A DNA stretch of 35,556 nucleotides from Rickettsiales bacterium (GTDB lineage: Bacteria; Pseudomonadota; Alphaproteobacteria; Rickettsiales; UBA1997), in assembly GCA_031269065.1 (NCBI GenBank), contig JAIRWJ010000016.1:1-35556 (forward strand), read 5' to 3'. The notes under the pieces were generated by a model that was given only the letters and a program-made list of their open reading frames with translations, was not told the DNA's origin and did not search any database. Every line of letters starts with the position of its first letter. Position 1 is the first letter of the stretch. Position numbers and translations under genes: made by a program. This document shows positions 10,909-16,236 of the stretch, piece by piece.

Positions 10909-13900
10909 CTACAAAAGCCCACTTTTGTTAAGGTATTCCTCAGCGTATTTTTTCTTATCCACGTCCTTTTGATCACCTAATTTTCCATCTTTTCCTTGGG
11001 AATGCATATATTCTTCCACCTTGTCTGGCATTTGGCTAAGAGCGGTATCTACGGATGCATTCTTGCGAAATTCCTGTTCCTTTGTGTCCAAAAGACTACT
11101 CTCGAATTCCTTGTCCTTTTTTGCCTGCTGCCCTTTATTCATGTTTTTGAATCCCGGGTCAGCATCTCTCTTTTGCTGCATATCCTGCTGAAACTGCGAA
11201 CTATTTTTGTAGCTGTTCAAACCCTGCTCAGTCTTAGAGTCAACGGCATTTGCAAAATTATTTCTCCTTTCTCCCCTTTCCTGTCTCTCTTTCTGTTGTT
11301 TCTCTCCGAACTCTTTTATGTTGCTACCACCCATTCTATTGGCTACTCCTTTAGCAAATCCAGTTCCTGCTGATTTCATAGCTCCCTTTGCAAATTCCCC
11401 TCCTTTTGCAGCGACGCTATTGGCCATGCCAGCTACTCCTCCGGCTATGGACATGCCTCCACTGGCACCGAAAATGCTGTTTCCAAGCTCTGCAGCTCCG
11501 GTCATGAACTTACTCATGAGTACACCAACTATGTAGAATGACATTATGCTGTAGAAACTTGGCATACTTTCATTTATAGTGTTAAGACTTCCAAGCAAGC
11601 TTGAGGTTGGAATTCTCCAGAAAGAAATAAGATCAAGAGGAATACCCGCTATATTCATATTGAGTATTGACATCCAACAGACTGTGTAACTAAAAGTGGA
11701 CTTTATAAAGTTGTATATGAGTATGTTAAAAAATGACAGCGTCATTACCAAAAATATTTGTTGCCCAGCAAAACTGACTAGCAGATTTACCCAGTTGTCC
11801 AGAGTTTTTTTAGTTCTCTCAAAAAACATGAAGAGTACCACAAGCGGGAAGAAACAGAGTACTAGGGATATATAAATCTGAGAGTTCAGGTACATGGTTA
11901 TTGCTGAAAACACGCCAATTATGTAGTTTATCACTGTTGTGGCCACCAGATAAAGGTATATAAGTCCGAACCAGCTGGAGAAGGCCAGGCCAAGCAACTT
12001 GTTAAATATAGGATCGGAAAATATTAATTTCAGATTGGAAAAACATGTTGAAAATATCACCGATTTGTCGGAATAATTTCTGGTGGCCAGAGCTACGGAA
12101 AGTTCTGAATCTATATCAGTTTCAAAAGATCCCGCTATCAGGAACAATATAGAATCCACACCATCCTTGAAGAATTTGACAATAAACTTATCAAAAAAAT
12201 TCCAACCACTTGGACTTATTATAAAATATATAAAACAAACTCTAATTATCTTTGGAATGATTTCCGACTGGGTAAAATTAGTGAGTCCAAAAAAGTAACC
12301 AAATCCGTAGAGAGTTATCATCAGTATCAGTGCCAGCTTTGCTACAAACTGATATAGTGGGTCCCCTATGAAATTTTCGAACACAATCTTAACAAAGCCC
12401 CTGCCATCTGCGTATTTTCCGCAACTACCAACCACGTTTAGGTCAACTTTCTTGCAATCTTCGTAACAATCGTTGCTGTTGATCATATCCTTATAGCTGC
12501 AGGTATTACCATTGTTGCTAACATCATCCTCGCTATAGATAATGCAACTTACACTATTATCGTCTGGACATGGGACTGGACGTCCTCCAGATTTTTTCAG
12601 AGATAGTTCAGAGCCATCCACAAAACCAAGAATCACATTGAAAAAATTTCTGAAATGTGTTACCAGCGTGTTTTCCGATCTGTTCACTGTCCTAATCCTT
12701 ATCTGATAGCTTCCAGAGTTATTACTCAGTTGACTATCTGTGTCCATTATTTTGAAAAATATACTCTTAGTTTTATCATCGATGTTCAGATAGCTGTTTC
12801 CGATGGTGTAGTTCGAACTGGAAAAATCAATTCCATAACCGCCGGCCACCGTTCTCAGAACACCCTGGGAATCAAACTTGAACTTTGTATTTTCCTGATC
12901 TAGTACTAGTACATTGCTTGCATCTTTTTTATACTTGACTATTTCCAGAATAGTGTTGTCACTGTTGCTATTGCCATTCGATCCATTGAAAACACCTACG
13001 GAAACGCCGTTATACTTTATGGCACCTGGGTTTCCTGCATAATTTTTACTATTATCGCTATTCCCAATAAATACAGCTAATCTTTCTCCATTTTTATAGC
13101 TTGCCGAACTTTCGAGGAGAGCCTTTAGGATATGTGAACTGCCGCCGCTGTTAAACAGTTTTACCCGGTTAAAGTTATCTAGTGCGGTCTCAAACACTCC
13201 ACCACTATAATCTATGTCCTTGATCACAAAAAATCTAATGAAGTTGCTACCCTTGGAATATATATTTCCGTTGTATTTTACCATAGTAGAACTGGAAGTT
13301 GTAGAAGAGTCATCGGAGTGGTAAGGAATAAAATTTTTTATCAGTCCGCCATCGGTAGTGCTAAAATTTTTCAATTTCTCCGCACCAAAACCTAAATCTA
13401 TGGGCGTTAAATATCCGCTAGAGTCAACATTCTGAGCATTGTTGTTTCCCTTAGTTCTCGCCACTAGCCCGCTAAATCTTCCTTTGTAGTTTTTCATACT
13501 GTAACACTGCGGGAGGTTAACGGTGCATTCTGTTTTACTGGCTCCTCCTTTGCAAAGCTTCTTATAGTAGTAGAAATGTGTACCGTAGTTTGTAGATGCT
13601 GAGTTCTCGGTGCCGCTGGATTTAATAACAAACAAACTATTCAGTGCGTCTGCCATGCTTACCGTATTACTGCTGGAGATGCTAGAATTAAATATAATTT
13701 TATCATCTGCATCAGTGCCAGACGAGACTATTGTAGCCGAATTTTTATACGATTCATTGCCCTCGTTGTCCATAATTCCTTTGTATACAACGTAGTCACT
13801 ATTTATACCTAAAGAGTTTGCACATTGCTTGGCTGCATCGTAGACTTTCCTTATTGTTTCGTTGTAGCAGTTTTTACACACAACGCTATTTGCTAGTTCG

Positions 13901-16236: not shown

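What the first reader, a model, noticed from the sequence alone, without database searches (positions are those of the whole stretch)
10909..16236. Orphan 1,775-aa lipoprotein fused to a VirB6/TrbL-type membrane domain
Seen in the sequence:
- One uninterrupted ORF whose N-terminus MGFYKRALVFSLFLLLLAC|DS carries a lipobox, with Asp at +2.
- Residues ~21-1290 have no hydrophobic helix and are rich in Ser/Asn/Asp/Thr. They contain many clustered Cys (CDSIDFC, LACIDMCINNC, CPDDNSVSC..CSYKD..CYEDC..SC), which fits an oxidised extracytoplasmic domain.
- Residues ~1294-1575 form 7-8 hydrophobic helices.
- A Gly/Ala-rich segment follows (GASGGMSIAGGVAGMANSVAAKGG..), then a Lys/Glu/Gln-rich tail. This is the layout of TrbL/VirB6 proteins.

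Established knowledge: Rickettsiales carry several enlarged VirB6 paralogues. These usually sit in virB3-virB4-virB6 arrays, and the extra mass is mostly C-terminal.

Inference: this gene stands alone, with no virB2/3/4/8-11/D4 in 35 kb. Its extra mass is a lipid-anchored N-terminal ectodomain that I cannot assign to any family. It could be a surface or periplasmic module grafted onto a T4SS channel subunit, or a TrbL-like scaffold reused for something else.
Basis: partly seen in the sequence, partly recalled or inferred. Interest (0 to 1): 0.7.

Follow-up and report, generated by a model that had tools for sequence, protein, structure and literature searches.

The report
Giant lipoprotein-type VirB6 secretion-channel protein
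This is a real 1,775-residue gene from an uncultured gut Rickettsiales-like bacterium: a type IV secretion channel subunit (VirB6) carrying a large, lipid-anchored, cysteine-rich outer domain of unrecognised fold, and it belongs to a small undescribed family that widens the known range of enlarged VirB6 proteins.

Summary
Window 10909-16236, on the minus strand, is one intact 1,775-aa ORF. It has four parts:
- a lipoprotein signal peptide (…LLLLAC|DS)
- a 1,270-aa Cys-rich hydrophilic domain
- seven hydrophobic helices that hit Pfam TrbL/VirB6 above the curated cut-off
- a Gly/Ala-rich, then Lys/Glu/Gln-rich tail

It is not a family orphan. An exhaustive profile search finds 33 clusters with the same ectodomain. 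Every full-length member also has the VirB6 block, and nearly all have the lipobox. All named members come from uncultured 'Rickettsiales bacterium' MAGs, several from termite-gut MAGs.

The gene stands alone among housekeeping genes in the window and in about 15 related loci. None has virB3 or virB4 nearby. One relative has a VirB2-like gene next door.

With a 34-sequence alignment AlphaFold2 models the ectodomain well (pLDDT 81). Foldseek finds no significant match in PDB or BFVD.

The nearest ordinary VirB6 proteins are the third paralogue of virB3-virB4-virB6×3 arrays. The loop tryptophan conserved in VirB6 is present.

Lipoprotein VirB6 proteins with N-terminal extensions are already reported in Anaplasmataceae. 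I therefore call this a new variant of the 'extended VirB6' kind. It most likely forms an enlarged periplasmic part of a T4SS. Whether the genome has the rest of that system could not be tested.

The parts
10909..16236 (-). Complete CDS, 1,775 aa plus stop codon: giant lipoprotein-type extended VirB6
   Evidence: ORF list and translation. An identical protein, P0001, is in NCBI and JGI, named 'type IV secretion system protein' / 'VirB6-like'.
16180..16236 (-). Lipoprotein signal peptide, residues 1-19 (MGFYKRALVFSLFLLLLAC). Lipobox L-L-A-C, Cys19 is the predicted lipidated residue, Asp20 at +2.
   Evidence: Sequence and lipobox pattern match. The lipobox is present in nearly all full-length family members, but the +2 residue varies (D, S, N, G, E, K, T).
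12367..16179 (-). Ectodomain, residues 20-1290. Hydrophilic, Cys-rich, non-repetitive and multi-domain. It includes the conserved N-terminal motif C25-Y-x-x-D-D-F-G and conserved blocks around residues 607-622, 888-919, 1047-1058 and 1160-1178.
   Evidence: - No hydrophobic segment; composition.
- 33 homologous clusters.
- Conserved Cys, Gly and Trp columns.
- No internal repeats.
- AF2 model pLDDT 81.4, pTM 0.68 for residues 21-1215.
- No significant PDB or BFVD fold match.
- No Pfam, NCBIfam, PHROGs or PDB sequence match.
12367..12606 (-). Membrane-proximal Cys module, residues 1211-1290, with six Cys invariant across the family (C1223, C1231, C1246, C1257, C1261, C1272), followed by D-G-x-G-F-V-K.
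   Evidence: Invariant columns in the 27-sequence alignment A4 and the 25-sequence alignment A5.
11482..12366 (-). VirB6/TrbL-like hydrophobic block, residues 1291-1585, with seven hydrophobic helices: 1293-1319, 1325-1344, 1414-1446, 1449-1475, 1482-1511, 1518-1539 and 1556-1581.
   Evidence: - Family-averaged hydropathy.
- Most conserved part of the protein: mean 57 % identity to P0001, against 25-32 % for the ectodomain.
- The family profile matches canonical VirB6 paralogues of virB3-virB4-virB6 arrays at E 1e-33 to 3e-34.
11698..12327 (-). Stretch matched by Pfam PF04610 TrbL/VirB6, residues 1304-1513
   Evidence: 31.1 bits, E 2.6e-7, gathering score 25.9. 25 of 25 family members match.
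11791..11793 (-). Codon of Trp1482 in the short basic loop FFERTKKTLDNW between helices 4 and 5. It is invariant in the family.
   Evidence: Invariant column. It aligns with Trp in 5 of 6 canonical VirB6 paralogues from L011 and L013. A loop Trp is reported as conserved across VirB6 and essential in A. tumefaciens (PMC7648143).
10912..11481 (-). C-terminal tail, residues 1586-1775: a Gly/Ala-rich segment followed by a Lys/Glu/Gln-rich low-complexity region
   Evidence: Composition. Weakly conserved, mean 25 % identity.
16278..16305 (-). Promoter-like hexamer pair (TTTATA-16-AATAAT) about 40 nt upstream of the start codon. Consensus match only.
   Evidence: The number of promoter-like sites in the region is not clearly above shuffles, so this is weak evidence.

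Best explanation
The gene encodes a divergent 'extended VirB6' subunit of a Rickettsiales-type (rvh-like) type IV secretion system.

**Shown**
- It has a lipoprotein signal peptide.
- It has a 1,270-aa Cys-rich domain with a well-predicted fold that matches nothing significantly in PDB or BFVD.
- It has a seven-helix VirB6/TrbL block with the conserved loop tryptophan.
- This architecture is conserved in a family of 1,500-2,400-aa proteins from uncultured Rickettsiales-labelled bacteria.

**Inferred**
- The precursor is exported by Sec, lipidated on Cys19 and cleaved by signal peptidase II.
- The ectodomain then lies in the periplasm, stabilised by disulfides. It is held at its N-terminus by the lipid and at its C-terminus by the first VirB6 helix. 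This matches the periplasmic N-terminus known for A. tumefaciens VirB6.
- By analogy with R388 TrwI and Legionella DotA, the VirB6 block would form a pentamer at the centre of the inner-membrane complex. Five ectodomains would then build an enlarged periplasmic stalk or cylinder. That structure could stand in for the VirB5 adaptor that rvh systems lack, or contact the outer-membrane complex or the host.
- The invariant residues are Cys, Gly, Trp and a few polar residues, not a catalytic set. The ectodomain is therefore more likely structural or binding than enzymatic.
For: - Pfam TrbL/VirB6 above threshold in this protein and in 25 of 25 relatives.
- Seven hydrophobic helices. This is the count described for VirB6 and DotA: two transmembrane helices plus five hydrophobic helices (bioRxiv 10.1101/2025.06.23.660953).
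- The nearest normal-size relatives of the block are the third VirB6 gene of virB3-virB4-virB6×3 arrays.
- Trp1482 aligns with the Trp of those canonical VirB6 proteins. A loop Trp is reported conserved in VirB6 (PMC7648143).
- The lipobox is conserved across the family. Lnt is encoded in the window and signal peptidase II in a relative's locus.
- About 22 Cys are conserved in the ectodomain.
- AF2 pLDDT is 81.4 with the 34-sequence alignment.
- Precedents: lipoprotein VirB6-3 with an N-terminal extension in Anaplasmataceae, and DotA as a VirB6-like protein with a large disulfide-bonded extended domain in a pentamer.
- One relative has a VirB2/TrbC-domain gene directly downstream.
Against: - No other T4SS gene lies within the 35.5-kb window or within 10 kb of the gene in about 15 related loci.
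- Whether these genomes carry any virB/rvh set could not be tested.
- The block is too divergent to match any solved VirB6 by sequence.
- Its own structure and oligomeric state were not predicted.
- No experiment or expression data exist. Topology, lipidation and disulfides are inferred from sequence only.
- The +2 residue after the lipobox Cys is not conserved, so inner-membrane retention of the lipid anchor is uncertain.
Confidence: 0.5

Rival explanations
1. The protein is an envelope protein that works without a T4SS. The VirB6-like helices were kept only as a membrane anchor or oligomerisation scaffold for a new periplasmic module with another job, such as envelope maintenance, lipid or cargo handling, or uptake.
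For: - The gene is always alone among housekeeping genes and its neighbours are not conserved.
- In one clade it sits between an MlaEFD-type lipid-transport operon and an ABC exporter.
- In another clade an M48 peptidase follows it in four loci.
- Within the family the hydrophobic block is highly conserved (57 %), yet it is only about 25-28 % identical to canonical VirB6. This fits a distinct, constrained role.
Against: - T4SS genes of Rickettsiales are typically scattered over the chromosome (PMC2653234; PMC11077975), so standing alone is weak evidence.
- The VirB6 loop Trp and surrounding motif are retained.
- A VirB2-like gene is adjacent in one relative.
- No T4SS-independent VirB6 is known to me (own knowledge).
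Confidence: 0.27
2. The ectodomain is a surface-displayed or released adhesin or antigen. It would reach the cell surface or be cleaved off, as proposed for the extensions of other Rickettsiales VirB6 proteins and for F-type TraG, and would contact the host protist cell. The VirB6 part would serve mainly for export or anchoring.
For: - Surface exposure is reported for Anaplasma VirB6-3/-4, and antibody reactivity for VirB6-3 of Ehrlichia and Wolbachia (PMC7648143).
- The ectodomain evolves faster than the membrane block (25-32 % vs 57 % identity).
- Weak local fold resemblance to jelly-roll and carbohydrate-binding-type β-sandwiches.
- Single relatives have picked up PKD-like or AIDA-like segments.
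Against: - No outer-membrane translocation signal or β-barrel is evident.
- The fold hits are not significant: none at E ≤ 1e-3.
- The Cys pattern and many core positions are strictly conserved, unlike a variable antigen.
- There is no repeat structure.
Confidence: 0.2
3. The ORF is an artefact: a mis-assembly joining two genes, or a decaying pseudogene.
For: None found. The only cue is the unusual size.
Against: - The ORF is intact.
- The same lipobox-ectodomain-VirB6-tail order occurs in more than 25 independent assemblies from different samples.
- Conservation runs along the whole length.
- GC content is like the rest of the window.
Confidence: 0.01

Closest known systems
Anaplasmataceae VirB6-3 (Anaplasma phagocytophilum, Ehrlichia chaffeensis, Wolbachia)
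   Same: An extended VirB6 of Rickettsiales with a predicted lipoprotein lipobox, a hydrophilic N-terminal extension and the TrbL/VirB6 domain toward the C terminus (PMC7648143).
   Different: - Those genes sit in virB3-virB4-virB6 arrays. This one stands alone.
- The 1,270-aa Cys-rich ectodomain has no detectable relative among named Rickettsiales. The exhaustive profile search returned only MAG and metagenome proteins.
- This organism encodes Lnt. A. phagocytophilum is reported to lack it.
Rickettsia RvhB6a-e and the VirB6 paralogues of virB3-virB4-virB6×3 arrays (here L011-L013)
   Same: - VirB6/TrbL core with the conserved loop Trp.
- Closest sequence relatives of the hydrophobic block (profile E 1e-33 to 3e-34, about 28 % identity).
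- Enlarged relative to the roughly 300-aa A. tumefaciens VirB6.
   Different: - RvhB6 proteins are 674-1,154 aa and tandemly arrayed.
- The array paralogues found here are 427-550 aa with ordinary signal-peptide-like N-termini.
- Neither has the large lipid-anchored ectodomain.
Legionella pneumophila DotA (VirB6-like subunit of the Dot/Icm type IVB system)
   Same: - Signal peptide.
- Two transmembrane helices plus five hydrophobic helices.
- A large extended domain containing disulfide bonds.
- Forms a central pentamer in the periplasm (bioRxiv 10.1101/2025.06.23.660953; PMC12857230).

It is the best working analogy for how a VirB6 with a large periplasmic mass may function.
   Different: - The DotA extended domain is inserted between the helices, not N-terminal.
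- No lipobox is described.
- It pairs with IcmX.
- No sequence similarity to DotA was detected or specifically tested here.
- It belongs to a different T4SS type (IVB).
F-type TraG and other 'extended VirB6' proteins
   Same: A VirB6-like polytopic part fused to a large hydrophilic extracytoplasmic domain. The class is recognised, but the function of the extensions is largely unknown (PMC12857230; PMC7648143).
   Different: - The extension is C-terminal or central in those proteins.
- They are encoded inside conjugation gene clusters.
- In F-like systems the extension acts in mating-pair stabilisation and entry exclusion.
Canonical VirB6 (A. tumefaciens VirB6, R388 TrwI)
   Same: Same Pfam family, a periplasmic N-terminus and a conserved loop Trp.
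   Different: - They are about 300 aa with no lipobox and no ectodomain.
- This block is too divergent for any sequence match to a solved structure.

Membership tests
TrbL/VirB6 (Pfam PF04610) | Profile match above the curated gathering score | tested here: met
   31.1 bits vs 25.9, E 2.6e-7, residues 1304-1513. 25 of 25 family members match, best E 9.9e-16.
TrbL/VirB6 (Pfam PF04610) | Polytopic block of about 5-7 hydrophobic helices (two N-proximal transmembrane helices plus five hydrophobic helices in solved VirB6 and DotA) | tested here: met
   Seven helices by family-averaged hydropathy. No dedicated topology predictor was available.
TrbL/VirB6 (Pfam PF04610) | Conserved tryptophan in the short central loop | tested here: met
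   Trp1482 is invariant in the family and aligns with Trp in 5 of 6 canonical array VirB6 proteins. Equivalence to the A. tumefaciens residue is inferred from its position and from PMC7648143. It was not aligned directly.
TrbL/VirB6 (Pfam PF04610) | Periplasmic N-terminus | tested here: inconclusive
   A cleavable lipoprotein signal peptide precedes a hydrophilic, Cys-rich domain. This is consistent with an N-terminus outside the cytoplasm. It has not been shown experimentally.
TrbL/VirB6 (Pfam PF04610) | VirB6 fold and pentameric assembly | not tested
   Both structure-prediction jobs went to the ectodomain. Sequence searches against PDB chains found no VirB6 match.
Functional T4SS component (rvh/virB system) | Encoded next to, or in the same genome as, VirB3/VirB4 and the other core genes | tested here: not met
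   Locally not met. There is no VirB3 or VirB4 in the window or in about 15 related loci, and no other virB family in the called genes. The exception is a VirB2/TrbC-domain gene next to relative P0009.
Bacterial lipoprotein | Signal peptide ending in a lipobox with an invariant Cys, plus processing enzymes in the organism | tested here: met
   Lipobox pattern match at Cys19, conserved across the family. Lnt is in the window and Peptidase_A8 (LspA) in a relative's locus. Actual acylation cannot be tested here.
Autotransporter or known adhesin families (considered for the ectodomain) | Match to passenger, β-barrel or adhesin repeat profiles or folds | tested here: not met
   - No Pfam or NCBIfam family in residues 1-1300.
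- Only single-member marginal AIDA and PKD hits elsewhere in the family.
- No repeats.
- No significant fold match.

The most novel reading that the evidence does not exclude
The protein could be an envelope-spanning, largely self-sufficient device. The lipid-anchored N-terminus would sit in the outer membrane in members whose +2 residue does not favour inner-membrane retention, while the VirB6 pentamer sits in the inner membrane. The novel ectodomain would then form a trans-periplasmic conduit or tether. It would replace VirB5 and part of the outer-membrane complex, or work with no other VirB proteins at all. That would explain why the gene is always alone.
Probability: 0.08. Interest if true: 0.85.

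Novelty: new variant of a known kind. Interest (0 to 1): 0.45.

Why it matters
- A recent review calls the function of the extra domains of 'extended VirB6' proteins unknown (PMC12857230).
- This family offers a well-conserved example whose ectodomain can be modelled with confidence. The extension is N-terminal, lipid-anchored and disulfide-rich, and its fold matches nothing significantly in PDB or BFVD.
- If the ectodomain forms the periplasmic stalk of a VirB5-less T4SS, it would show a new way of building the central channel.
- If these genomes lack other VirB genes, it would be the first VirB6 scaffold I know of that is used outside a T4SS.
- The family also marks a little-studied lineage of gut-associated Rickettsiales-like bacteria. 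These carry ankyrin-repeat proteins typical of host-interacting symbionts.
- The organisms are uncultured, so experimental follow-up would have to be heterologous.

Tried and rejected
- **Plus-strand reading.** The given coordinates read on the plus strand are full of stops. The gene is on the minus strand.
- **Curated libraries and PDB sequences.** NCBIfam and PHROGs gave nothing useful. PDB sequence searches with the ectodomain profile, the C-terminal 565 aa and the C-terminal profile gave no real match, only low-complexity tail hits.
- **First AlphaFold2 run.** With only 5 sequences it failed (pLDDT 42.7) and was discarded.
- **Word-indexed homologue search.** The search with the 27-sequence full-length alignment returned only the same five proteins, probably swamped by low-complexity words, so that search was wasted. 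The search with the hydrophobic block alone was more useful.
- **Internal repeats.** Looked for in the ectodomain and not found.
- **Conserved accessory gene.** Unknown neighbours of the window and of relatives share no similarity. Only a clade-specific M48 peptidase follows the gene, in four loci.
- **Metagenome and genome scans.** The metagenome scan added only five loci. The genome-collection scan found three termite-gut MAGs and could not be repeated to look for VirB4 and the other core genes in those genomes.
- **Literature.** A rumen-ciliate symbiont preprint said nothing about this lineage's T4SS.
- **Asp+2 as a family-wide inner-membrane retention signal.** Rejected, because the +2 residue varies.
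- **Enzymatic ectodomain.** Considered unlikely, because the invariant residues are Cys, Gly, Trp and a few polar residues.
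Full report
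**1. The observation**

The coordinates 10909..16236 hold a single ORF of 1,775 codons with an ATG start, on the minus strand. The plus-strand frame is broken by many stops. Residue i corresponds to window nucleotide 16236-3(i-1).

- The N-terminus is MGFYKRALVFSLFLLLLAC|DSIDFCYY. It has a basic n-region, a hydrophobic core and an L-L-A-C lipobox that fits a PROSITE-type lipoprotein pattern. Asp follows at +2.
- Residues 20-1290 have no hydrophobic segment. They are rich in Ser (13.5 %), Asn (8.9 %), Asp (8.0 %) and Thr (6.5 %), and hold 29 cysteines.
- Family-averaged hydropathy resolves seven hydrophobic helices between residues 1293 and 1581.
- The last 195 residues are Gly/Ala-rich and then Lys/Glu/Gln-rich.
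- GC content matches the rest of the window.

**2. The membrane block is VirB6**

- Pfam PF04610 (TrbL/VirB6) matches residues 1304-1513 at 31.1 bits, above the 25.9-bit gathering score. All 25 relatives scanned also match it, with a best E-value of 9.9e-16.
- A profile of the block finds normal-size VirB6 proteins of 427-448 aa (P0057, P0058) as its nearest relatives outside the family. Each is the third VirB6 gene in a classic Rickettsiales-style virB3-virB4-virB6-virB6-virB6 array. The profile scores them at E 1e-33 to 3e-34.
- The short basic loop FFERTKKTLDNW carries Trp1482, which is invariant in the family. It aligns with Trp in five of six of those canonical paralogues, inside a shared F-E-K-T-K…W motif. 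A loop tryptophan is reported as conserved across VirB6 proteins and essential in A. tumefaciens (PMC7648143).
- The count of seven helices equals the 'two transmembrane plus five hydrophobic helices' described for VirB6 and DotA (bioRxiv 10.1101/2025.06.23.660953).
- No solved VirB6 is detectable by sequence, and I did not model this block.

**3. The ectodomain defines a family**

The first homologue search found four relatives of 1,733-1,788 aa (one partial) at 42-57 % identity, all with the same layout. An exhaustive HMMER search of 1.84 billion representative proteins with the ectodomain profile then found 33 clusters at E ≤ 1e-3, of which 20 are at E ≤ 1e-30. Most are 1,500-2,360 aa.

- Every full-length member also carries the VirB6-like block C-terminal to the ectodomain.
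- Nearly all have a lipobox followed by a C-[YI]-x-x-D-D-F-G-type motif. The apparent exceptions are truncated gene calls.
- About 22 cysteines, several Gly and Trp residues and a few polar residues are invariant or nearly so. No catalytic-looking set is conserved.
- There are no internal repeats.
- The membrane block is the most conserved part, with mean identity to this protein of 57 %. The ectodomain is at 25-32 % and the tail at 25 %.
- All members with a source name are 'MAG: type IV secretion system protein [Rickettsiales bacterium]' or JGI 'VirB6-like'. The three species-representative genomes found are MAGs whose isolate names look like termite-gut bins. No named genus appears.

So the protein is not a family orphan, and the fusion cannot be an assembly error.

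**4. Fold of the ectodomain**

With five sequences AlphaFold2 failed (pLDDT 42.7). With a 34-sequence alignment it gave mean pLDDT 81.4 and pTM 0.68 for residues 21-1215. In protein numbering (model position + 20), the model is a multi-domain α/β structure:

- an N-terminal helical Cys-rich part
- long β-rich regions (about residues 180-550 and 815-1185)
- helical inserts
- a final helix leading into the six-Cys membrane-proximal module

Foldseek found no match at E ≤ 1e-3 in the PDB or in BFVD. The weak local hits are to jelly-roll or β-sandwich modules: the laminin LF domain (E 3.7e-3), CBM22, CBM6, CBM35 and viral capsids. Pfam, NCBIfam, PHROGs and PDB sequence searches were empty for this region. 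The search used the whole chain, so domain-level matches may have been missed. No library of predicted cellular structures was available.

**5. Genomic setting**

The window encodes envelope and housekeeping functions:

- a TolC/HlyD/ABC efflux set
- Lnt
- an SDR
- ComEC
- BipA
- AsmA
- MurJ
- FtsW
- LpxB
- LptA and LptB
- YchF
- RimM
- an ankyrin-repeat protein

No other T4SS gene is present. In ten annotated loci of relatives the gene is again alone among unrelated housekeeping genes. tblastn with VirB3 and VirB4 from the canonical arrays finds nothing in the window or in any family locus.

There are two local exceptions:
- In L010 a 780-aa protein with an N-terminal TrbC/VirB2 pilin domain (32.6 bits vs 27.9) and a long Cys-rich extension lies directly downstream.
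- In one sub-clade an M48 peptidase follows the gene in four loci.

Whether the genomes hold an rvh/virB set elsewhere could not be tested. Rickettsiales T4SS genes are known to be scattered (PMC2653234; PMC11077975), so local isolation is weak evidence against a T4SS role.

**6. Most likely mechanism**

*Shown:* the domain order, its conservation, VirB6 membership by profile and motif, and a confidently predicted ectodomain fold with no significant match in PDB or BFVD.

*Inferred:*
- The precursor is exported by Sec, acylated on Cys19 and cleaved. Lnt is in the window and LspA is in a relative's locus.
- The ectodomain is then periplasmic and disulfide-bonded. It is tethered at both ends to the inner membrane, which agrees with the periplasmic N-terminus of A. 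tumefaciens VirB6.
- Solved systems show that VirB6 forms a central pentamer, with most of its mass in the periplasm under a VirB5 pentamer. DotA, a VirB6-like protein with a large disulfide-bonded extended domain, forms a pentameric protochannel with IcmX.
- rvh systems lack VirB5. I therefore propose that five copies of this protein build an enlarged periplasmic stalk or cylinder that supplies the missing adaptor function. I rate this at about 0.5.

*Rivals:* a T4SS-independent reuse of the VirB6 scaffold (about 0.27); a surface-exposed or released adhesin, as suggested for other Rickettsiales VirB6 extensions (about 0.2); and an artefact (about 0.01).

**7. Comparison with what is known, and novelty**

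'Extended VirB6' is a recognised class whose extra domains have no known function. In Anaplasmataceae, VirB6-1 to -3 carry the TrbL domain toward the C terminus, and VirB6-3 is a predicted lipoprotein.

What is new:
- the size and nature of the N-terminal module, a 1,270-aa Cys-rich, non-repetitive domain with no significant structural match
- its conservation as a distinct family confined to uncultured Rickettsiales-labelled bacteria
- its consistent stand-alone location

Automated pipelines already name it a T4SS/VirB6-like protein. In four full-text searches aimed at VirB6 in Rickettsiales I found no paper describing this family. I class it as a new variant of a known kind, of moderate interest.

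Noticed in passing
L010:16191-18533 (+), contig of relative P0009: A 780-aa protein lies directly downstream of the giant VirB6-like gene. It has an N-terminal TrbC/VirB2 pilin domain (Pfam 32.6 bits vs cut-off 27.9) followed by about 660 aa of Cys-rich sequence. This is a second T4SS component in this lineage with a large Cys-rich extension. It has no homologue in the window or in the other loci.
   Followed up: partly
L009:17177-18301, L016:16958-18073, L018:1766-2806, L022:16973-18022: An M48-family peptidase gene of about 370 aa sits immediately downstream of the giant VirB6-like gene in four loci of one sub-clade (42-58 % identity to each other). It is absent from the window. It could be a clade-specific functional partner, for example for processing.
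   Followed up: partly
window 28167-30341 (+): A 724-aa protein has ankyrin repeats only at its C-terminal end (residues 627-713). The first roughly 620 aa have no Pfam match. Ankyrin proteins also occur near the gene in relatives (L006, L009). Ankyrin-repeat proteins are common T4SS effectors in Rickettsiales (own knowledge).
   Followed up: no
window 9538-10623 (+), 19322-20497 (-), 16735-17163 (+), 533-937 (-), 2252-2557 (-): Several ORFs of 101-391 aa have no Pfam match. Two of them flank the finding. The first three, the only ones compared, have no similar sequence in the loci of relatives fetched by then. The 391-aa ORF overlaps the start of the ComEC gene by 8 nt, which suggests an operon.
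   Followed up: partly
window 16237-16734: About 500 bp of AT-rich spacer (GC about 0.35) separates the gene's start from a divergent ORF. It contains an 81-aa ORF (16397-16642, minus strand) with no Pfam match, and promoter-like hexamers at 16278-16305.
   Followed up: partly
L008 and L009 (both from ENA sample ERZ27237438): Two different family members, P0019 (2,100 aa) and P0026 (2,363 aa), come from one sample on different contigs. They could be paralogues in one genome or come from two organisms.
   Followed up: no
L006:6671-9873 and 15786-18617; L007 likewise: In the clade of P0007 the gene lies between an MlaE-MlaF-MlaD-lipoprotein operon and a three-gene ABC exporter, all on the same strand. 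This could hint at an envelope or lipid-related context, or it could be coincidence.
   Followed up: no
window 2696-6114 (-) and 7032-8444 (+): An ordinary tripartite efflux set (ABC ATPase, HlyD-type adaptor, TolC-like OEP) and apolipoprotein N-acyltransferase Lnt. Lnt implies triacylated lipoproteins, unlike A. phagocytophilum, which is reported to lack Lnt.
   Followed up: no
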